Made by a program: the position numbers and the translations under genes. A stretch of DNA of 20,102 bases from Pyrobaculum sp. (GTDB lineage Archaea > Thermoproteota > Thermoprotei > Thermoproteales > Thermoproteaceae): NCBI GenBank assembly GCA_046293555.1, contig JBKBOT010000029.1, positions 1-20,102 on the forward strand. The letters run 5' to 3'. Below, one piece after another: positions 228 to 6,173 of the stretch (positions are counted from its first letter, which is position 1; each line of letters opens with the position of its first letter). The notes beneath the pieces are model-generated. The model was not told the origin of the DNA, ran no database searches, and worked only from the letters and a program-made list of their open reading frames with translations.

Positions 228-240
228 TATATAAACTTAA
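228..240 (-). promoter_or_regulatory. Internal TATA promoter for lysW and the downstream gene, overlapping the lysZ stop codon
   Basis: Minus strand TTAAG-TTTATATA, with ATG 27 nt downstream of the TATA start (leaderless geometry). Confidence 0.7.
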
Positions 241-1010
241 CGTATGTGCGTGCCGGCGCCAGCCAGCGCCGCGTCTATAGGCCTCTCCACAAGGCCGCTT
301 GAGATCACCACCTCTACCCCACCTCTAGCCGCCTCTGCCGCCATGAGGAGTTTTCTCCGCATGCCGCCCCACACCCCGTCCGATTTAGCCAACGCCTCTG
401 CCTCCCCCGCCGTAAGCCGCGGCACAACTCTGCCGCCAACCAACACGCCGTCGACGTCGCTGAGGATAACAAGCCTCTCCGCGCGGCTTCTCGCAGCCAC
501 CTCAAAGGCCAGCTGGTCCCCATCTACGTTTAGCAGCTCGCCTCTCTCAGAGAGGGCTATGGGGGCTAACACCTTTAGGGGGGGCGGCGCCAGCTTGTTG
601 ACATCTACCTCTGTTATACGGCCCACATAGCCGCCGTCTACCACCCTCTGCCGCCCCCTCTCGTCTACTACCAACACCCTCTCCTTCCGCCTGGCTTTAA
701 CCACGCCGCCGTCTGCGCCCGTGAGGCCCACAGCCTCTACCCCCGCCGCGTTTAGAAAAGCCACGATGTACTTATTGACCCAAGACATAGCCATGACGAA
801 AATCTTTAAGGTCTCGTAGTCCGTATAGCGGCTCACCACGCCGCCTGGGTGAGTTAAAAACCTGGGCTCTAACCCCACCCTCCTCAACAGCTCATTTACG
901 TAACACCCCCCGCCGTGTATCACAACGCTGTCTATATGGCTGGCTAAGTTAGAGAGGGCTTTGGTGGGGTCTTTACAGAAGACAGACCCCCCTATCTTTA
1001 CCACCATCAT
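237..1010 (-). CDS. lysZ: [LysW]-aminoadipate/[LysW]-glutamate kinase
   Basis: [27 protein letters not shown] and GGMRRKL motifs of the ArgB/LysZ amino-acid kinase family; ATGA overlap with lysY. Confidence 0.92.
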
Positions 1011-2062
1011 ACCGGCGCCAGCGGCGTCTGCCCAAGCCCCTCGTCTTCTGGAAAGCCCATGGCTATGTTAAAGGCCTGTACCGCCTGCCCCGCTGCGCCC
1101 CGCACCAGGTTGTCTATAGCGGCGAAAGTCACCACGCGGCTTAGCCTGACGTCTAGCTCAAAGCCTATATCCGCCATGTTTGACCCCAGTACGTACTTCA
1201 CGTTGGGGTATCTAGACAGCCCCAGCCGGTCTTTCACAAGGCGGATAAACCTGGAGTCGCCGTAGAGAGACCGGTAGTATTTCCACATGTCGGCCTCCGT
1301 GGGGAGCCTCTCTGTATACACGTGGCCAGAGGCGAAGATGCCCCTCACCAGGTCGACGGCGTGTGGGGTAAAGGCCACCCTCACGGGCCTTCCAGCCAGT
1401 AGGCTTAGCTCCTGCTCGATCTCGGCAATGTGGCGGTGGTGTACAGGCTCGTAGGGCCTCACCACATATGTCCTAAAGCTATGTAGATCCACCACGGAGC
1501 CCTCGGCCCCCGCGCCGCTGGAGCCAATCTTGGCGTCTACTACAGGCGGCGTCTGGCCGACAACGCCGTGTTTAGCCAGGGGGGCCAACATGAGGATAGA
1601 CGCCGTGGCCATACAGCCCGGGATAGCCACCAGCCTCGCCCCAACGAGCTCCTGTCTATGTAACTCCGGCAGGCCGTAAACAGCTTTAGCCAGGAGGTCT
1701 GGATATGGATGCGGCTGGGGCCACCTGTACCACTCCACATATGCGTCCGGGTCCTTTAGCCTAAAGTCTGCGCTGAGGTCAAACACCGCGGCGCCGGATT
1801 CATATAACGTGGGCACCCATTTTACCGACTCGCCGTGGGGGAGGGCGAGGAAGACCACATCTGCCTTCAACGCGGCGTCGACCGTGGGCTCTACGAACTT
1901 GAGCTGGGTGAAGCCCCGGAGGTGTGGATGTACCCTATAGACGTACTCCCCCCTGAACTTTCTAGAGGTGGCGCAAGCCACCTCCACCTCCCCGTGTTGG
2001 AGGAGGAGTCTCAACAGCTCCCCCCCAGTGAAGCCAGAGGCGCCTACAATACAGACCCTCAT
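1007..2062 (-). CDS. lysY: [LysW]-aminoadipyl/glutamyl-phosphate reductase (ArgC family)
   Basis: GASGFTG Rossmann motif, LALPHG, DLSADFR, YGLPE, PGC active site, [19 protein letters not shown]. Confidence 0.95.
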
Positions 2063-2729
2063 AGCAGCTCGGCCAACAGGAGTGCCTCCTCTCTATCTAG
2101 AGGCGGCACGGGGTCCACGTCTATGACGTACCACCTCTCCCCATAGTCGCCCAGCGTCACCCTGGCGTATTGAAGCTCCAGGTAGGCCAACAGGTCTGCC
2201 ACAACGCCGACTGCGTTTCTGGCGGTGGCAAATACGGTCTTTACGCCGCGGGGCCTCGGCACCACTATAGACGCCCTGGCTAGGGGGTTTTTCATATACA
2301 TCCGGTGCTCCACCACGCTTTTTGCCCCCTCCACGCTTGTCACCACGCCGTCTAGGCCAAGCCTCCAGGCGGTTAGTAAAAGCCAGGGCCGCTCCACCTC
2401 CACCTTCTCCACGATGGCGTCAGATGAGATAATGGCGTGAGGCGGGCCGAACCTCTGTATCCAATAGGCCCTATTGAGGGCAGAGATTATAGAGGTGGGG
2501 GGGTTGACAACCCTCCTGGCCATAGAGCCATACGCCACGGCGAGGTAGGGATTTCGAGTTCGCAACACGGCGGCGTCTAGTACCCCACTTATGGCCACCT
2601 CGGAGATGTTTAACACAACTGCCTTCAGGCCTCTGGCGGAGAGAGCCTCAGCTATATACTTCTCGGAGATCGTGGGGCTGTCTGTAAGGATGTAAATCGC
2701 CCCACTTTCCCCTCTGGCCCCGAGTCCAT
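2059..2729 (-). CDS. Degenerate LysX/ArgX (RimK ATP-grasp)-like protein, about 223 aa, requiring a -1 frameshift near the start
   Basis: The frame of the 2616 ORF stays open upstream (AIYILTDSPTISEKYIAEALSARG, LysX-like N-terminus) with no ATG/GTG/TTG. EGAKSVVEHRMYMKN resembles LysX/ArgX. The GSWG loop and EVN motif are replaced (LGLDG, DVD). The leaderless ATG 2729 is out of frame. Confidence 0.7.
2652..2729 (-). promoter_or_regulatory. Frame-0 leader ORF MDSGPEGKVGRFTSLQTAPRSPRSI* carrying three tandem NNG-GGG-(Pro/Lys/Arg) putative -1 shift sites
   Basis: ATG GAC TCG GGG CCA GAG GGG AAA GTG GGG CGA TTT ... TAG (2654-2652). Each G-GGG slip lands in the lysX-like frame. Confidence 0.75.
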
Positions 2730-2748: not shown

Positions 2749-2779
2749 TATATAAACTTTTGTAGAAAAAAGTTAAATA
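2749..2779. promoter_or_regulatory. Compact back-to-back divergent promoter pair
   Basis: Minus AAAAG-TTTATATA (2756-2749) and plus AAAAAA-GTTAAATA (2772-2779). Each TATA start lies exactly 27 nt from an ATG (2729 and 2799). Confidence 0.8.
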
Positions 2780-2798
2780 TGTCGCCCTTCTGGAGGCC

Positions 2799-2831
2799 AT
2801 GGATTCGGGGACAGCTCGCTACGTTGTGTGA
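2799..2831 (+). promoter_or_regulatory. Frame-0 leader ORF MDSGTARYVV* with a TCG-GGG-ACA(Thr) putative -1 shift site
   Basis: ATG GAT TCG GGG ACA GCT CGC TAC GTT GTG TGA. A -1 slip gives MDSG-DSSLRCVICG in the thrC frame. Confidence 0.75.
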
Positions 2832-3937
2832 TCTGCGGCGCCGAGTACGCCCCAGATTACCGACTCTATAGGTGCCCCAAATGTGGCGGCGTCCTGGAGG
2901 TAGTAGTTAAAGACAGGTACTGGGCCCCCTCGGGGAGAGGCGTGTGGCGATACGCCACAATGTTGCCACTAAGGCGCGGGGTGACGGCGGGGGAGGGAAA
3001 CACGCCGCTGGTGGAGTCCAGACTGGCGCCGGGGCTATACGTCAAATACGAGGGAGTCAACCCCACCGGCAGCTTTAAGGACCGGGGGATGGCCCTGGGG
3101 ATAACTGTGGCGAGAGAAAGCGGTGCAGACAAGGTGGTAGTGGCGTCTACAGGAAACACCGCCGCCTCAGTTGCCGCATATGCCGCCAGAGCCGGCATGA
3201 GGTGTTTTGTGGTACTCCCCAGAGGCAACGTGGCTAGAGGCAAGTTGGTACAGGCGGCTCTACACGGCGCAGAGATCGTGATGGTCAACGGCCTTTTCGA
3301 CAAGGCGCTGGAGTACGTCCTCGCCTACGGCACTAAATACGCCTACCCCCTCAACAGTTTTAACCCCTGGCGTCTAGAGGGACAGAAGACCACCGCCTTT
3401 GAGATATATGAGGAGTTAGGCTGTCCGGACTACGTGATAGTCCCTGTGGGAAATGCCGGCAACATCTCGGCCATCTGGAAGGGATTTAGAGAGCTGGCGG
3501 AGCTGGGGCTTTGCCACAAGCTGCCCAAAATGGTGGGCGTGCAGGCAGAGGGAGCGGCCCCGCTGGCCAAGGCGTGGGAGTTCGGGAGAGATACCCCCGT
3601 GTTTGTAGACGAGCCAGAGACAGTGGCCACAGCCATAAAGATAGGCAAGCCTATAAACTGGCCAAAGGCACTGGCGGCGGTAAGAGAGTCCGGCGGCTTC
3701 TTCACCACCGTGTCAGACGTCGAGATCCTAAAGGCACAGAGGCTGCTAGCCACGAGAGACGGGCTGGGGGCAGAGCCCGCCGGCGCCGCCCCCATCGCCG
3801 CCGCGTTGAAATTAAGGCTGCCGGGAACTGTGGCGGCCGTGGTGACCGGCCACGCCCTTAAAGACCCAGACGTGGTGGAGATAGAGGCCAGAGAGGTGAG
3901 AAATGCAGACGAGCTGGTAGAGCTGCTGGAAAGATGA
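2799..3937 (+). CDS. thrC: Threonine synthase (about 379 aa via -1 frameshift; the in-frame GTG at 2828 would lack the first Zn-ribbon Cys)
   Basis: NPTGSFKDRG PLP-lysine motif, ASTGNT, EGQKT, PVGNAGN, TGHALKD; N-terminal RCVIC...CPKC Zn ribbon begins upstream of 2828. Confidence 0.93.
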
Positions 3938-4914
3938 AGCCCGTCATAAAGATCGGCGGGTCCCTCCTGCGGACACCCGGCGATTTCCTCAAGGCGGCCA
4001 ACCACGTGTCGACATACAGGACGCCGGTGGTGGTGGTATCTGCGGTAAAGGGCGTTACAGACATGTTGATAGAGCTGGAAAAAACGCGGAGTTACCTCCT
4101 GTACGAGGAGATACTCCACAGACATATGTACATAGCGAGGCAGCTGGGGGTAGAGGAGAGAATAGCCGGCCTCCTGAAGGAGCTTGAGTCAAGCCTCAAG
4201 CTCCCCAAGGCGCCGTGGGCGGCAGACCACTTCGCCTCTTTTGGCGAGAGGCTTTCAGCCGCCGTCCTCCACGGCGTTTTGGAAAAACTAGGCCACCCCG
4301 CCAGGCTCTACATGGCGCCGATACTGACAGACAGCAATTTCGGCAACGCCTACCCCATACGGCTTGAACAAAAAGACGAGATTGTCCAACACGACGGCGT
4401 GGCGGTAGTCACCGGGTTTATTGGCAGAGACAAGGAGGGGAGATACACCACCCTGGGGCGAGGCGGTAGTGACTACACGGCGACATATATAGGCAGGGAG
4501 ATAGGCGCCAGAAAGGTGTCATTAGTGACGGACGCCCCCGGCGTCATGACTGCAGACCCACAGGAGGTAGAAGACGCCGAGGTGCTCTCCATGATGTCTA
4601 TAGACGAGGCCATAGAGGCCGCCAGGGCAGGGGCAAAGAACTTCCACCCAAAGACCTTCCTCCCAGCTATAGAAGGCGGCATGGCGGTAGAGGTCAAAAG
4701 CTACCACTCCAGGGGGACGCTCATAGCCCACATATATGCCCCACCGCCATATAAGCTAGTCACCAGATGTGGACAGGGCAGCTGCGTAGTGGGGCTGGCG
4801 GTAGAGGAGTTGACAAAACTGGGGGGCATACCTATAGGCCGCCACACCGCAAAACTGGCCATACCCCCACTACAGGCACATGAATATATAATAAAGCCCT
4901 ACTGGAAAAAATAG
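3934..4914 (+). CDS. lysC: Aspartate kinase (short, no clear ACT domains)
   Basis: KIGGS, VVVSA, SFGERLSA, TGFIG, TTLGRGGSDYTA, TADP, HPKT; ATGA overlap with thrC. Confidence 0.92.
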   Translation: MKPVIKIGGSLLRTPGDFLKAANHVSTYRTPVVVVSAVKGVTDMLIELEKTRSYLLYEEILHRHMYIARQLGVEERIAGLLKELESSLKLPKAPWAADHFASFGERLSAAVLHGVLEKLGHPARLYMAPILTDSNFGNAYPIRLEQKDEIVQHDGVAVVTGFIGRDKEGRYTTLGRGGSDYTATYIGREIGARKVSLVTDAPGVMTADPQEVEDAEVLSMMSIDEAIEAARAGAKNFHPKTFLPAIEGGMAVEVKSYHSRGTLIAHIYAPPPYKLVTRCGQGSCVVGLAVEELTKLGGIPIGRHTAKLAIPPLQAHEYIIKPYWKK

Positions 4915-5150
4915 GTCTAGTTTTAGTTCTTACAACGCAGAGAAAATAAACTCCTTATGTCTTAATGTCACTTTATAACCACAACGTCGGCCTCCCTGTA
5001 ATTTTTTATCGCAAACTTACAAACCTTACATAGATACGAGAAACAACCTATGGACACATATTTCAAAAGTGGCTTATTTTGAAGATTCTGAAGATTCTTA
5101 TAGTTTTTAACAAGCTAGCTAAACAATATATACTGGCTGTATTTATTGCC

Positions 5151-6173
5151 ATGGATCGCCTCAAGACATATATATTAGGGGCCACTGGCCTAGTGGGACA
5201 GAGATATGTCCAGATGTTGGCCAAACACCCGTGGTTCGAGGTAGTAGGCCTCGCCGCCTCTGAGAAAAGCGCCGGAAAAACCCTGCCTCAGGCGGGGTGG
5301 GCACTAGAAGAGCCACCTCCTCCACAACTAGCCGAAATTAAGATAGAGAAGTTAGACCCAGAAAAAGTGCCCAAGGTGGATTTTATCTTCTCCGCGCTGC
5401 CCAGCGAGGTGGCAGCTAAGGTAGAGCCACAACTGGCGACCCGGGGGCATGTGGTGGTATCAAACGCCAGTAACATGAGGCTCGACCCAGACGTGCCGCT
5501 GGTGGTACCAGAGATAAATCCAGACGACTTAAAGCTCGTCGAGGAACAGAGACGAGGGAGGGGGTGGAGGGGGGCAGTGGTGAAAAAACCTAACTGCACT
5601 ACCACAATCTTGAACCTCCCCCTAAAGCCCATATTGGACAAGTGGGGCATCTCTAGGCTATATGTCGCCACCATGCAAGCCGTCAGCGGGGCGGGGTACT
5701 CCGGAGTCCCCTCCATGGCCATAATAGACAACCTTGTGCCATACATAAGGGGGGAGGAGGAGAAGGTGGTGGCAGAGACCAGAAAGATACTGAGGCGGGA
5801 GATAGACATGGCTGTCACCACCACGAGGGTGCCGGTGCTTGACGGCCACACAGAGGTGGTATATGTGGAGACTGAGAGAGACTTCGAGATTGAAGCAGTG
5901 GCGGAAGCCCTGGCGAACTTCAAGGGGCTTCCGCAAGAGTTAAGACTCCCCACGGCGCCAGAGAGGCCGGTAGAGGTGAGAACACAGTTGGACAGACCTC
6001 AGCCTAGGCTAGACCGCTGGGCCGGCGGCGGCATGGCGGTGGTGGTGGGCCGCTTGCGGAAACTAGCGGCGAGAAGACTGGCCTTTGTGGTACTTGGTCA
6101 CAACACGGTGCGTGGGGCTGCCGGCAACTCTATACTTACTGCAGAACTCATGGCGAGGACGGGAGCGACATGA
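5151..6173 (+). CDS. asd: Aspartate-semialdehyde dehydrogenase
   Basis: GATGLVG, PLVVPEIN, PNCTT catalytic Cys, QAVSGAG, RVPVLDGH, HNTVRGAAG. Start at ATG 5151, downstream of AATATATA at 5125. Confidence 0.95.
   Translation: MDRLKTYILGATGLVGQRYVQMLAKHPWFEVVGLAASEKSAGKTLPQAGWALEEPPPPQLAEIKIEKLDPEKVPKVDFIFSALPSEVAAKVEPQLATRGHVVVSNASNMRLDPDVPLVVPEINPDDLKLVEEQRRGRGWRGAVVKKPNCTTTILNLPLKPILDKWGISRLYVATMQAVSGAGYSGVPSMAIIDNLVPYIRGEEEKVVAETRKILRREIDMAVTTTRVPVLDGHTEVVYVETERDFEIEAVAEALANFKGLPQELRLPTAPERPVEVRTQLDRPQPRLDRWAGGGMAVVVGRLRKLAARRLAFVVLGHNTVRGAAGNSILTAELMARTGAT

What the first reader, a model, noticed from the sequence alone, without database searches (positions are those of the whole stretch)
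2799..2831. thrC: Thr-codon slip site, plus a GTGA stop-start overlap as a possible leak route
Seen: frame 0 encodes MDSGTARYVV*. The -1 frame encodes DSSLRCVICG, supplying the first Cys of the ThrC CxxC..CxxC Zn ribbon. There is no ATG/GTG/TTG in that frame between TAA 2774 and GTG 2828. The leader's TGA (2829-2831) overlaps GTG 2828. Inference: the full-length enzyme needs the shift at GGG|ACA(Thr). Reinitiation at 2828 could give basal expression of a truncated form and maintain some coupling to aspartokinase.
Basis: partly seen in the sequence, partly recalled or inferred. Interest (0 to 1): 0.85.

Follow-up and report, generated by a model that had tools for sequence, protein, structure and literature searches.

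The report
Threonine-sensing frameshift leader of thrC
The threonine synthase gene of this Pyrobaculum has no start codon of its own and can only be read in full if the ribosome slips back one base on GGGG just before a threonine codon; it is one of at least 14 such amino-acid-matched switches in the genome, which looks like an undescribed way of sensing amino-acid shortage.

Summary
ATG 2799 opens an 11-codon ORF, and thrC lies in its -1 frame with no start codon before GTG 2828.

It is not an error. All 26 thrC loci of two genera, and 17 of 17 close metagenome relatives, have ATG, 1-4 codons, then TCG GGG ACR. TCGGGGAC is the longest invariant run in the whole gene alignment. The ATG sits at the genome's normal promoter-to-start distance, which fits a leaderless mRNA.

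A genome-wide scan found the same cassette on 13 more transcription units. The codon after G_GGG matches the pathway product:
- Trp for trpD, trpB2 and trpS
- Val/Leu(/Ile) for ilvB
- Lys for lysX and homocitrate synthase
- Arg for carA
- Phe for pheA
- Tyr(/Trp/Phe) for the aromatic genes
- Cys for a CysK-like gene
- Leu for a leuA-like gene
- Pro/Lys/Arg for thrC's divergent neighbour

Chance of this match is about 2e-16, and the codons are conserved across genera.

Best reading: a starvation-gated -1 slip of peptidyl-tRNA-Gly at a "hungry" codon. Eight literature searches found no description. This scan noted the same idea earlier on another Pyrobaculum genome (e1-2608507). No protein-level evidence exists yet.

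The parts
2766..2780 (+). Promoter of the thrC leader: an A-run (BRE-like, 2766-2771) and the TATA-like TTAAATAT (2773-2780), starting 26 nt before ATG 2799
   Evidence: One search gives the sequence; upstream of 649 likely start ATGs of this genome there is an A-rich block at -32..-30 and a T/A-rich block at -27..-21, at a fixed distance from the ATG; the promoter score of ATG 2799 is 8.8, the 99.6th percentile of 45,097 ATGs; GTG 2828 scores -3.4.
2799..2831 (+). Zero-frame leader ORF (MDSGTARYVV*), the presumed 5' end of a leaderless mRNA
2805..2813 (+). Slip and sensor site TCG GGG ACA. The G run is 2807-2810. The P-site Gly codon GGG 2808-2810 can re-pair on GGG 2807-2809. The A-site Thr codon is ACA 2811-2813. 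After the slip the next codon is GAC 2810-2812.
   Evidence: TCGGGGAC is invariant in 26 of 26 loci and is the longest invariant run of the gene alignment. The sensor codon is ACA in 20 and ACG in 6.
2807..3937 (+). thrC reading frame (-1 relative to the leader), from the slip site to stop TGA 3935-3937
   Evidence: TIGR00260 thrC scores 261.5 bits against a cut-off of 167.1. Pfam PALP; the translation.
2825..2884 (+). N-terminal four-Cys (CxxC...CxxC) Zn-ribbon codons of ThrC. Cys1 at 2825-2827 lies upstream of the only in-frame start-like codon (GTG 2828).
   Evidence: The four Cys are invariant in 26 of 26 loci. Over the first 24 codons, the number of variable columns by codon position is 13, 12 and 24.
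3934..4914 (+). Aspartate-kinase-like gene, overlapping the thrC stop by ATGA (translational coupling is inferred)
   Evidence: AA_kinase; aspartate kinase models match but score below their cut-offs.
2749..2761 (-). Promoter (AAAAG + TTTATATA on the minus strand) of the divergent leader
   Evidence: score 9.2.
2652..2729 (-). Second frameshift leader, divergent from thrC: ATG GAC TCG GGG CCA GAG GGG AAA GTG GGG CGA ... TAG. It has three G_GGG sites, followed by Pro, Lys and Arg codons.
   Evidence: Of the 26 evaluated g1+g3 loci, 23 carry all three sensor codons. The order is P,K,R in g1 and K,P,R in g3.
2059..2721 (-). ORF in the -1 frame of that leader (220 aa, with no start codon of its own in the mRNA). 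It shows only a faint RimK pre-ATP-grasp likeness and is the first gene before the LysY/ArgC and LysZ homologues.
   Evidence: P0121. Rimk_N at E 0.098, which is only a hint; present in 29 of 29 family genomes.
237..2062 (-). Downstream genes of the divergent operon: an N-acetyl-gamma-glutamyl-phosphate reductase homologue (1007-2062) and a [LysW]-aminoadipate/[LysW]-glutamate kinase (237-1010)
   Evidence: TIGR01850 scores 410 against 233.6, and NF010662 scores 268 against 194.

Best explanation
thrC is expressed through a programmed -1 ribosomal frameshift that works as a threonine sensor. Transcription starts at or next to ATG 2799, so the mRNA is leaderless. The ribosome reads ATG GAT TCG GGG. 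With Gly-tRNA on GGG (2808-2810) in the P site, the A site shows the Thr codon ACA. If charged tRNA-Thr is plentiful, ACA is decoded, the ribosome runs into TGA 2829-2831 and only a 10-residue peptide is made. If charged tRNA-Thr is scarce, the A site stays empty. The peptidyl-tRNA-Gly then slips back one base onto GGG 2807-2809, and GAC (Asp) and the rest of thrC are read. This gives full-length threonine synthase and, through the ATGA overlap, the aspartate-kinase-like protein. The same device (a leaderless start, 0-4 codons, G_GGG, then a codon for the pathway's end product, with the enzyme in the -1 frame) heads at least 13 other amino-acid-related transcription units of this genome. Several sites in series act as an OR gate: Val/Leu/Ile on ilvB; Pro/Lys/Arg on the divergent neighbour; Tyr/Trp/Phe on the transketolase gene of relatives; and Ile+Thr on thrC of 12 of 17 g1 genomes. 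Shown here: the layout, its conservation, the nucleotide-level constraint, the promoter phasing and the codon-pathway match. Inferred: that the slip happens on the ribosome, that it is triggered by an empty A site, and its efficiency.
For: (1) Layout. (2) Conservation of thrC. In 22 of 22 g1+g3 loci of the first set and 4 of 4 further g3 loci there is an ATG in the +1 phase of thrC, then 1-3 codons, then TCG GGG ACR. In the thrC frame of the 22 first-set loci, 14 have no canonical start between the upstream stop and Cys1. Five have one only 33 or more codons upstream, beyond the TATA box. Three have one at the Leu position two codons before Cys1. Seventeen of 17 close metagenome loci have the same layout. 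(3) Constraint beyond coding: TCGGGGAC is the longest invariant run (8) of the 1206-column alignment. The base after GGGGAC is always a purine, although the thrC residue there varies (S, N, G, D). (4) Frame switch: indels upstream of the site keep the ATG phase and indels downstream keep the thrC phase. The Leu codon before Cys1 uses CTC 8, CTT 6, TTG 4, CTG 3, CTA 2 and TTA 2, with ATG once. (5) Promoter phasing. A passage of PMC6028130 states that leaderless transcription was first found in Pyrobaculum aerophilum. (6) The class in this genome. Of the 24 best-scoring candidates of the scan (promoter score at least 5.0), 14 are amino-acid genes whose sensor codon matches: thrC-Thr, LEU1_arch/IPMS-like-Leu, homocitrate synthase-Lys, LysX-Lys, CarA-Arg, TrpB2-Trp, TrpD-Trp, TrpRS-Trp, IlvB-Val+Leu, transketolase N-part-Tyr+Phe, AroD/chorismate mutase-Tyr, prephenate dehydratase-Phe, CysK/M-like-Cys, and the divergent neighbour-Pro/Lys/Arg. 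The chance of at least 13 of 14 first-site matches is 2.3e-16, and 0 of 200,000 label shuffles reach 13 (the maximum seen was 10). (7) Conservation of sensor codons in other genomes. trpD: 16 of 16 g1 loci. ilvB: 28 of 28 have at least one branched-chain codon, 27 have Val+Leu and 14 also have Ile (two loci were re-read by eye). carA: 29 of 29 have CGA. trpS: 24 of 24 g1+g3. pheA: 27 of 27 g1+g3. lysX: 26 of 26 g1+g3. CysK/M-like: 22 by script plus 4 with a GTG first codon by eye, out of 26 g1+g3 loci. Homocitrate synthase, the leuA-like gene, trpB2, the transketolase part and aroD-CM: 5 of 5 complete genomes each. The three sensor codons of the divergent neighbour are kept but in a different order in the two genera. 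(8) No conserved downstream RNA structure. This fits one-tRNA 'hungry' slippage, which a passage of PMC8211752 describes as independent of stimulatory elements. (9) Contigs from four RNA-library runs of one sample of a relative cover the slip site with GGGG unchanged (0 gaps, 0 other letters).
Against: No protein, ribosome-profiling or starvation data were available, so neither the shift nor its regulation is demonstrated. G_GGG is not avoided inside ordinary ORFs of this genome (6466 in-frame cases, observed/expected 1.72, of which 54 are followed by ACA and 51 by ACG). The tetranucleotide alone therefore cannot be very slippery, and what makes the leader sites special (closeness to the 5' end?) is unknown. 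Most sensor codons are not rare; only CGA is, at 3% of Arg codons. Alternative initiation cannot be excluded everywhere. The window has GTG 2828, and 5 of 26 thrC loci have TTG or ATG two codons before Cys1. For Trp and Cys sensors the first -1-frame codon is GTG by construction. The acceptable amino-acid sets in the statistical test were set by me from textbook pathways after seeing the data. The first sensor of the divergent neighbour (Pro) is explained only by a recalled ornithine-to-proline route. The RNA check uses assembled contigs of one sample, which drop rare variants, and such libraries may contain DNA.
Confidence: 0.8

Rival explanations
1. A programmed -1 frameshift that is constitutive, a fixed-ratio or merely historical recoding that does not respond to amino-acid supply.
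For: The conserved layout proves a need for recoding, not regulation. No stimulatory structure and no physiological data are available.
Against: It does not explain why the codon after G_GGG matches the pathway product in 13 of 14 first sites (P 2.3e-16). It also does not explain why that codon is kept while the overlapping -1-frame residue varies (carA CGA 29 of 29; thrC ACR 26 of 26). Nor does it explain why multi-product pathways carry one site per product.
Confidence: 0.1
2. No frameshift. ThrC starts at GTG 2828 or at a later internal codon, as public annotations assume, and the upstream open frame is not translated. The short ORF is an independent upstream ORF.
For: GTG 2828 exists and overlaps the leader stop. 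Database entries for this protein family start at many internal positions, with lengths from 325 to 403 aa.
Against: GTG at that position occurs in only 3 of 26 loci, and 14 of 22 loci have no canonical start before Cys1. Codons between the slip site and Cys1 evolve as coding sequence in the thrC frame: indels come in whole codons and the Leu codon varies synonymously. Cys1 is conserved in 86 of 88 distant homologues. GTG 2828 has no promoter at the right distance (score -3.4).
Confidence: 0.04
3. The frame is corrected at the RNA level: RNA polymerase slips on GGGG, or editing adds one G, so the ribosome reads a normal ORF.
For: The site is a homopolymer run, and transcriptional realignment is known in prokaryotes (reference list of PMC6028130, seen).
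Against: The run is only 4 G long. Contigs from RNA libraries of a relative cover the site with GGGG and no inserted base, though rare variants are dropped. RNA-level slippage would give no reason for the amino-acid-matched codon behind the run.
Confidence: 0.03
4. A sequencing or assembly error, or a decaying pseudogene, in this draft genome.
For: The genome is a 145-contig draft, and homopolymer runs are error-prone.
Against: An identical four-G layout is found in 26 of 26 loci, among them single-contig genomes, and in 17 of 17 metagenome loci. The gene is otherwise intact and under purifying selection.
Confidence: 0.005
5. Non-canonical initiation directly in the thrC frame, either at a non-start codon at the 5' end of the mRNA or from an alternative transcription start.
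For: The exact 5' end of the mRNA was not measured here.
Against: In several loci the thrC frame is closed by a stop one or two codons before the leader ATG and holds no near-cognate start up to Cys1 (for example L008, L010, L022). The ATG phase is conserved through spacing changes. The invariance of G_GGG across 14 unrelated genes is unexplained by this model.
Confidence: 0.025

Closest known systems
Autoregulatory +1 frameshift of bacterial release factor 2 (prfB)
   Same: A slow-to-fill A site lets the P-site tRNA slip, and the shifted frame encodes the very factor whose shortage caused the pause. This is a negative feedback written into the first codons of the gene. The mechanism is recalled; prfB is named as a programmed-frameshift gene in a passage of PMC6028130.
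   Different: prfB shifts +1, not -1. Its sensor is a stop codon read by a protein, not a sense codon read by an aminoacyl-tRNA. It uses an internal Shine-Dalgarno stimulator and is a single gene rather than a family of at least 14 transcription units. It is bacterial.
Leader-peptide transcription attenuation of bacterial amino-acid operons (thr, trp, ilv, leu, phe, his leaders)
   Same: A short leader ORF carries codons for the pathway's end product(s), and ribosome pausing at them reports tRNA charging. Multi-product pathways carry several kinds of codon. The E. coli thr leader with Thr+Ile codons and the ilv leaders are recalled. The pheL abstract was seen in the listings.
   Different: Here there is no terminator/antiterminator RNA: the consensus fold is -0.8 kcal/mol with 0 covarying pairs. 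The leader overlaps the enzyme ORF. The output is a change of reading frame, not read-through of a terminator. There is usually one sensor codon per amino acid instead of runs. No coupling to RNA polymerase is needed.
'Hungry-codon' one-tRNA -1 slippage (Gallant and Lindsley; described in PMC8211752 and PMC5009743, passages seen)
   Same: The proposed elementary step is the same: the P-site tRNA re-pairs one base upstream while the A site is vacant for lack of aminoacyl-tRNA, with no stimulatory structure needed.
   Different: It is known from starved laboratory E. coli, HIV env and mitochondria as error or adventitious events. The 2016 review calls the natural role of such frameshifting unclear. 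Here it would be the designed, conserved route to the main gene product.
fucA1 alpha-L-fucosidase of Saccharolobus solfataricus, the only -1 programmed frameshift reported in Archaea (PMC8211752, abstract and passages)
   Same: It is an archaeal (crenarchaeal) -1 frameshift that joins two overlapping ORFs into one enzyme.
   Different: fucA1 uses the heptamer A_AAA_AAT with a flanking stem-loop and rare codons, 81 codons into the gene. It is found in two strains and has no known link to a metabolite. The site here is a tetranucleotide at codons 2-10 of a leaderless mRNA, conserved over genera and tied to amino-acid identity.
Leaderless polycysteine short ORFs as cysteine-responsive attenuators in mycobacteria (bioRxiv 10.1101/834739; only the start of the abstract was seen in the listing)
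   Same: Leaderless short ORFs at the 5' end of biosynthetic operons use codons of the end product as sensors.
   Different: As far as the abstract start tells, those are separate upstream ORFs with runs of Cys codons that control downstream genes. They are not a frameshift into an overlapping enzyme frame.

Membership tests
Canonical -1 programmed ribosomal frameshift signal (X_XXY_YYZ heptamer plus downstream stimulator) | A heptanucleotide on which both the P- and A-site tRNAs can re-pair in the -1 frame | tested here: not met
   The site is C_GGG_GAC in the -1 frame and TCG GGG ACA in the zero frame. Only the Gly tRNA can re-pair: ACA would become GAC. The A-site codons of the 14 cassettes are unrelated to one another.
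Canonical -1 programmed ribosomal frameshift signal (X_XXY_YYZ heptamer plus downstream stimulator) | A conserved stem-loop or pseudoknot 5-9 nt downstream | tested here: not met
   RNAalifold on 26 loci gives -0.8 kcal/mol, 5 pairs and 0 compensatory changes. The window's own fold has z = -1.53.
Canonical -1 programmed ribosomal frameshift signal (X_XXY_YYZ heptamer plus downstream stimulator) | Two overlapping ORFs in a 0/-1 relation, conserved among relatives, with the downstream ORF lacking its own start | tested here: met
Hungry-codon (vacant A site) one-tRNA -1 slippage | The P-site tRNA can re-pair perfectly one base upstream | tested here: met
   G_GGG is present in all cassettes.
Hungry-codon (vacant A site) one-tRNA -1 slippage | The A-site codon belongs to an amino acid whose tRNA charging can become limiting | tested here: met
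   The sensor codon matches the pathway product in 13 of 14 first sites and is conserved across genera.
Hungry-codon (vacant A site) one-tRNA -1 slippage | The shift rises on starvation for that amino acid | not testable with these tools
   This needs culture, in-vitro translation or ribosome-profiling experiments.
Leader-peptide transcription attenuator | A short leader ORF with regulatory codons for the end product | tested here: met
Leader-peptide transcription attenuator | Alternative terminator/antiterminator hairpins between the leader and the first structural gene | tested here: not met
   The leader overlaps thrC, so there is no intergenic space. No conserved structure was found.
Threonine synthase (ThrC, PLP fold type II, with N-terminal Zn ribbon) | A match to the curated thrC model above its cut-off, plus the PALP domain | tested here: met
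   TIGR00260 scores 261.5 against 167.1. PF00291 has E 3.5e-73.
Threonine synthase (ThrC, PLP fold type II, with N-terminal Zn ribbon) | Four N-terminal cysteines, CxxC...CxxC | tested here: met
   They are present only if translation enters upstream of GTG 2828. The motif is found in 86 of 88 distant homologues and in 26 of 26 orthologues. Zinc binding itself was not tested.
Leaderless archaeal mRNA | A BRE/TATA element at a fixed distance (about 26 nt) from the start codon, with no Shine-Dalgarno signal | tested here: met
   The genome-wide profile and the score of ATG 2799. The TATA-like box lies 25-27 nt upstream in relatives.
Leaderless archaeal mRNA | A mapped 5' end at the start codon | tested here: inconclusive
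   Only assembled contigs of one sample were available, and these cannot show transcript ends.

The most novel reading that the evidence does not exclude
Thermoproteaceae regulate a whole set of amino-acid biosynthesis operons and at least one aminoacyl-tRNA synthetase with structure-free 'frameshift attenuators'. These consist of a leaderless start, G_GGG, and one codon per end product, with the enzyme in the -1 frame, so that an empty A site itself switches the gene on. It would be a translational counterpart of attenuation, T-boxes and riboswitches that needs no RNA folding and no 5' UTR, which suits life near 100 C. A variant for thrC (N-TG GAA ACA, i.e. G_GAA followed by a Thr codon, often as a Shine-Dalgarno-led three-codon ORF M-E-T-stop) appears in other Thermoproteota. 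That would make the principle old and widespread.
Probability: 0.72. Interest if true: 0.95.

Novelty: new variant of a known kind. Interest (0 to 1): 0.92.

Why it matters
If confirmed, this would be the first natural case in which frameshifting at a starved sense codon is the designed route to a gene product. It would also be the first amino-acid-specific regulatory mechanism of this kind in Archaea, where the control of amino-acid biosynthesis is poorly understood.

It would raise the count of archaeal -1 programmed frameshifts from one gene (fucA1, per the 2021 review PMC8211752) to a regulon.

It would explain why the starts of these genes are annotated inconsistently. ThrC entries range from 325 to 403 aa; some run through the TATA box and others lose the Zn ribbon.

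It would give gene finders a simple rule for Pyrobaculum and Thermoproteus.

It would also offer a minimal, portable amino-acid sensor of about 12-30 nt with no RNA structure.

The question is now directly testable by junction-peptide mass spectrometry or reporter assays.

Tried and rejected
- **Downstream stimulatory structure.** None is conserved, and the window's own fold is not unusual (z -1.53).
- **Bulge-helix-bulge mRNA intron.** Considered and rejected. Indels on either side of the 8-nt invariant block keep the two different phases, so the switch must lie inside those 8 nt.
- **Sequencing error or pseudogene.** Rejected.
- **Avoidance of in-frame G_GGG in ordinary ORFs,** as a sign of slipperiness. 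Not found; the tetranucleotide is over-represented.
- **Genome-wide count of ATG-N(3-12)-TCGGGGAC.** At the level of the reversed-pattern control, so not informative.
- **tRNA inventory by ARAGORN.** Incomplete. tRNA-Thr CGU, GGU and UGU and tRNA-Ser CGA were found, but no tRNA-Gly, so no conclusion on tRNA supply.
- **Sequencing runs.** In four RNA-library runs of one sample, contigs over thrC of a relative (L012) end at 2638-2659. The leader ATG is at 2645-2643 on the minus strand, and 2660-2720 has almost no cover. Contigs of a single sample cannot show transcript ends or absence, so this is not used as evidence.
- **False or unresolved candidates of the genome scan.**
  - C4(-)7302: has an in-frame ATG 10 nt upstream and matches no family.
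  - C2(-)60247: lies inside DNA polymerase B.
  - C1(+)60484, C1(+)31823 and C30(+)16893: judged from the ORF context to lie inside longer ORFs; not run through a family search.
  - C3(-)82176, C6(+)42629 and C5(-)72088: match no family.
  - The other candidates with score at least 5 that are not listed in this report were not examined.
  - Window 19711 (+), a C_CCC site: probably spurious, because the opposite strand carries the open frame.
- **P0004.** This is a metagenome protein that reads a third frame through the leader. Its contig was not among the 80 loci fetched, so it stays unexamined.
- **f2-family genomes.** There is no G_GGG leader on ilvB or carA in 4 of 4 genomes. The one f3 genome gave no hit.
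- **The P. aerophilum genome paper** could not be read.
Full report
**1. The observation**

Window 2799-2831 reads ATG GAT TCG GGG ACA GCT CGC TAC GTT GTG TGA, which translates to MDSGTARYVV*. The frame one base back is open from TAA 2774 and reads ...GFGDSSLRCVICGAEYAPDYRLYRCPKCGG... It continues as a 369-386-residue threonine synthase: Pfam PALP and NCBIfam thrC at 261.5 bits against a cut-off of 167.1. That frame has no ATG, GTG or TTG before GTG 2828, and GTG 2828 lies after the first Cys codon of the CxxC...CxxC motif.

The genes that follow on the + strand are an aspartate-kinase-like gene (3934-4914, overlapping the thrC stop by ATGA), then asd and hom. The asd gene has its own promoter and a normal ATG at 5152. 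The window is contig 29 of a 145-contig, 1.75-Mb genome. Sources name the closest database proteins as Pyrobaculum.

**2. It is conserved, not an error**

I fetched thrC loci from 40 relatives and four further genomes of the family. In all 26 loci of genera g1 (17, including the window) and g3 (9), an ATG lies in the +1 phase of thrC. It is followed by 1, 2 or 3 codons and then by TCG GGG ACR. One incomplete g1 genome (61% complete) gave no thrC.

In the thrC frame of the first 22 loci:
- 14 have no canonical start between the upstream stop and Cys1;
- 5 have one only 33 or more codons upstream, beyond the TATA box;
- 3 have TTG or ATG at the Leu position two codons before Cys1.

In several loci a stop closes the thrC frame one or two codons before the leader ATG (L008, L010, L022). 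Seventeen of 17 close metagenome loci show the same cassette with four G.

In a 1206-column alignment of the 26 loci, TCGGGGAC is the longest invariant run at 8 columns; the next longest are 5, 5 and 4. Spacing changes upstream of it keep the ATG phase. Spacing changes between it and Cys1 keep the thrC phase. The Leu codon before R/K-Cys1 uses six synonymous codons. Over the first 24 Zn-ribbon codons, the variable columns by codon position are 13, 12 and 24. The reading frame therefore changes inside those eight bases.

Public annotations have not seen this. Entries for this protein start at many places (325 to 403 aa). Some read through the TATA box and others lose the Zn ribbon.

**3. The ATG is where this genome puts start codons**

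Upstream of 649 likely start ATGs of the genome there is an A-rich block at -32..-30 and a T/A-rich block at -27..-21, with no Shine-Dalgarno signal. This is the signature of leaderless mRNAs. According to a passage of PMC6028130, leaderless transcription was first described in Pyrobaculum aerophilum.

A position weight matrix of that region scores ATG 2799 at 8.8. That is the 99.6th percentile of all 45,097 ATGs and the 93rd percentile of the training starts. GTG 2828 scores -3.4. Relatives have the TATA-like box 25-27 nt before the leader ATG.

**4. RNA level**

Contigs assembled from four RNA-library runs of one sample of a relative cover the slip site with GGGG unchanged, with no gaps and no other letters. 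This argues against a dominant extra G in the RNA. Contigs drop rare variants and such libraries can hold DNA, so the check is weak.

**5. thrC is one member of a class**

I scanned the whole genome for four features together:
- ATGs with a promoter at the right distance;
- a short ORF of at most 45 codons;
- a G_GGG site within the first 15 codons;
- an open -1 frame of at least 100 codons.

Of the 24 candidates with a promoter score of at least 5.0, 14 head amino-acid-related genes, identified by NCBIfam/Pfam on the -1-frame product:

| Gene | Codon(s) after G_GGG |
|---|---|
| thrC | ACA (Thr) |
| isopropylmalate-synthase-like gene | CTC (Leu) |
| homocitrate synthase | AAA (Lys) |
| lysX | AAA (Lys), then stop |
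| carA | CGA (Arg) |
| trpB2 | TGG (Trp), then stop |
| trpD | TGG (Trp), then stop |
| tryptophan-tRNA ligase | TGG (Trp) |
| ilvB | GTA (Val) and CTC (Leu) |
| N-terminal transketolase gene | TAT (Tyr) and TTT (Phe) |
| aroD-chorismate mutase fusion | TAT (Tyr), then stop |
| prephenate dehydratase | TTT (Phe) |
| CysK/M-like PLP enzyme | TGT (Cys) |
| thrC's divergent neighbour in this window (ATG at 2729, minus strand) | CCA (Pro), AAA (Lys), CGA (Arg) |

The divergent neighbour lies ahead of LysY/ArgC and [LysW]-aminoadipate/[LysW]-glutamate kinase homologues.

I took the amino-acid frequencies after in-frame G_GGG in 1459 long ORFs as the null. On that null, the chance of at least 13 of 14 first-site matches is 2.3e-16, and no label shuffle out of 200,000 reached 13. 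The acceptable sets were defined by me from textbook pathways after seeing the data. The Pro site counts as the one miss.

The other ten top candidates were either false (inside DNA polymerase B, or apparently inside longer ORFs), matched no family, or were not examined. They are listed under Tried and rejected.

**6. The sensor codons are conserved gene by gene**

| Gene | Result |
|---|---|
| trpD | ATG-NNN-TCG GGG TGG in 16 of 16 g1 loci; in g3 and g2 trpD sits inside an operon with a normal start |
| trpB2 | cassette in 5 of 5 complete genomes, including g3 |
| ilvB | 28 of 28 loci of all three genera have at least one branched-chain codon after G_GGG; 27 have Val and Leu; 14 also have Ile (two loci re-read by eye); all nine g3 loci read TCG GGG GTY ... 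TCG GGG CTC (GAG or GTG) GGG ATC |
| carA | CGA in 29 of 29, although the overlapping -1-frame residue varies |
| trpS | ATG GGG TGG in 24 of 24 g1+g3 loci |
| pheA | TTY in 27 of 27 |
| lysX | AAA in 26 of 26 |
| CysK/M-like gene | TGY in 22 loci by script, plus 4 with GTG as first codon by eye, of 26 |
| homocitrate synthase | AAA, 5 of 5 |
| leuA-like gene | CTC, 5 of 5 |
| aroD-CM | TAT, 5 of 5 |
| transketolase gene | three sites, Tyr, Trp and Phe, in 4 of 5 complete genomes; Tyr and Trp in the fifth |
| divergent neighbour of thrC | Pro, Lys and Arg in 23 of 26 loci, in the order P,K,R in g1 and K,P,R in g3 |
| thrC | 12 of 17 g1 loci carry a second, upstream site G_GGG_ATT (Ile) |

The thrC pairing of Ile and Thr resembles the Thr+Ile codons of the E. 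coli thr leader (recalled).

**7. Mechanism**

Shown: the layout, its conservation, the nucleotide constraint, the promoter phasing and the codon-pathway match.

Inferred: on a leaderless mRNA the ribosome reaches GGG in the P site within 2-10 codons.
- If the aminoacyl-tRNA for the next codon is abundant, translation continues in the zero frame and ends after a few codons.
- If it is scarce, the A site stays empty and peptidyl-tRNA-Gly re-pairs one base back on G_GGG. A G-starting codon of the -1 frame (GAC for thrC) is then read, and the enzyme and its translationally coupled followers are made.

This is the 'hungry' one-tRNA slippage that the 2021 review describes as independent of stimulatory structures (PMC8211752, passages). 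No conserved structure was found here. Sites in series give an OR gate. The design needs neither a 5' UTR nor RNA folding, which would suit leaderless mRNAs at very high temperature (my inference).

What makes the leader sites more slip-prone than the 6466 in-frame G_GGG sites inside ordinary ORFs is not known. Those sites are over-represented (observed/expected 1.72), and 105 of them are followed by ACR. Closeness to the 5' end and the very short nascent chain are my guesses. CGA is the rarest Arg codon (3%), but the other sensor codons are not rare.

**8.

GTG at the position of 2828 occurs in 3 of 26 loci; the others have ATA (10), GTA (7) or GTC (6). The zero-frame stop does fall at that spot in most g1 loci, but a stop-start overlap is not a conserved feature. 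A product starting there would lack Cys1, which 86 of 88 distant homologues keep. In this one genome reinitiation cannot be excluded.

**9. How far it reaches**

- The third genus of the family (g2) has the cassette on ilvB and carA, but a Shine-Dalgarno-led GTG start on thrC.
- Four genomes of the sister family f2 have no G_GGG leader on ilvB or carA. One carA has ATG ATG GGA CGA with carA in the -1 frame.
- All six f2 thrC loci carry N-TG GAA ACN in the phase that puts thrC in the -1 frame.
- Among 55 distant metagenome thrC loci, none has a G_GGG leader and 40 have an ordinary in-frame start. However, 28 carry GGAAAC with GAA in that same phase, against 3 and 2 in the other two phases. The thrC frame is open from there to Cys1 in 28 of 28. 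The motif often appears as GGTGA-N5-7-TTG GAA ACA TAA, an SD-led M-E-T-stop.

A G_GAA variant of the Thr-gated slip (tRNA-Glu re-pairing on GGA with one G.U pair) is a lead, not a finding.

**10. Comparison with what is known, and novelty**

The logic is that of prfB: a vacant A site leads to a shift, which produces the missing factor. It is also that of bacterial leader-peptide attenuation: codons of the end product act as sensors. The elementary step is hungry-codon slippage.

It fails the tests for a canonical X_XXY_YYZ-plus-structure signal and for a transcription attenuator (see Membership tests).

Eight full-text searches found no description of frameshift leaders on Pyrobaculum or Thermoproteus amino-acid genes. 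Passages searched by term in three papers do not mention them:
- PMC8211752 states that only one -1 frameshift is known in Archaea;
- PMC5009743;
- PMC3711429.

The library lacks most subscription journals, and I saw only listings, abstracts or passages, so 'not in print' is not proven.

I reached it independently before looking, and I tested it here on more genes and genomes.

**11. Verdict**

The frameshift reading is strongly supported by comparative evidence, and the Thr-sensing function is well supported by the genome-wide codon-pathway match. The reinitiation route is not supported. There is no protein-level proof yet.

Noticed in passing
window 2652-2729 (-) and 2059-2721 (-): Seventy bases from the thrC leader, on the other strand, a second leader has three G_GGG sites followed by Pro, Lys and Arg codons. 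It heads a 220-aa ORF without a start codon, ahead of LysY/ArgC and LysZ homologues. The ORF matches no family apart from a faint RimK_N hint at E 0.098.
   Followed up: yes
L026-L031; L328-L390: thrC of the sister family and of 28 of 55 distant metagenome loci carries N-TG GAA ACA in the phase that puts thrC in the -1 frame (phase counts 28:3:2; the thrC frame is open to Cys1 in 28 of 28). It is often an SD-led three-codon ORF M-E-T-stop. This may be a G_GAA variant of the same Thr-gated slip.
   Followed up: partly
L282 and L283: carA of one f2-family genome has ATG ATG GGA CGA GCA TGA. This is G_GGA followed by an Arg codon, with carA in the -1 frame and the stop overlapping an in-frame ATG. 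In another f2 genome the carA frame has no canonical start, and the only nearby ATG (ATG CGA ATG ATT CGG...) would need a +1 shift. Unexplained.
   Followed up: no
G000 C16 around 21155 (-), locus L102: The tryptophan-tRNA ligase gene also has a leader (ATG GGG TGG), conserved in 24 of 24 g1+g3 loci. The device is therefore not limited to biosynthetic enzymes; functionally it is comparable to T-box control (recalled).
   Followed up: yes
P0001-P0032: Public entries for this ThrC start at inconsistent places, giving lengths of 403, 400, 385, 371, 364, 345, 343, 331 and 325 aa. Some translate the TATA box (KVYI). Others begin at MWRYASMLP or MLPLK and lack the Zn ribbon.
   Followed up: partly
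P0004: One metagenome protein (VASWRGFRGTGSYLKC...) reads a third frame through the leader into thrC. Two homopolymer-type extra bases would explain it. Its contig was not among the loci fetched.
   Followed up: partly
whole genome G000: GGG codons are preferentially preceded by a codon ending in G (observed/expected 1.72). AAA after NNA and CCC after NNC show the same bias (1.67 and 1.72). Homopolymer tetramers are thus favoured, not avoided, in this genome's ORFs.
   Followed up: no
L136 (G002): One relative has a second, partial copy of the divergent-neighbour ORF next to its thrC region. It has an internal TAG and no leader.
   Followed up: no
L024, L025: In genus g2, thrC has a GGAGGTG Shine-Dalgarno-like box and an in-frame GTG four codons before Cys1, so no frameshift is needed. 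A short out-of-frame ATG ORF is still present upstream.
   Followed up: no
window 5120-5160 (+): asd (aspartate-semialdehyde dehydrogenase) has its own TATA-like box and a normal in-frame ATG at 5152. Only thrC and the aspartate-kinase-like gene are therefore under the leader.
   Followed up: partly
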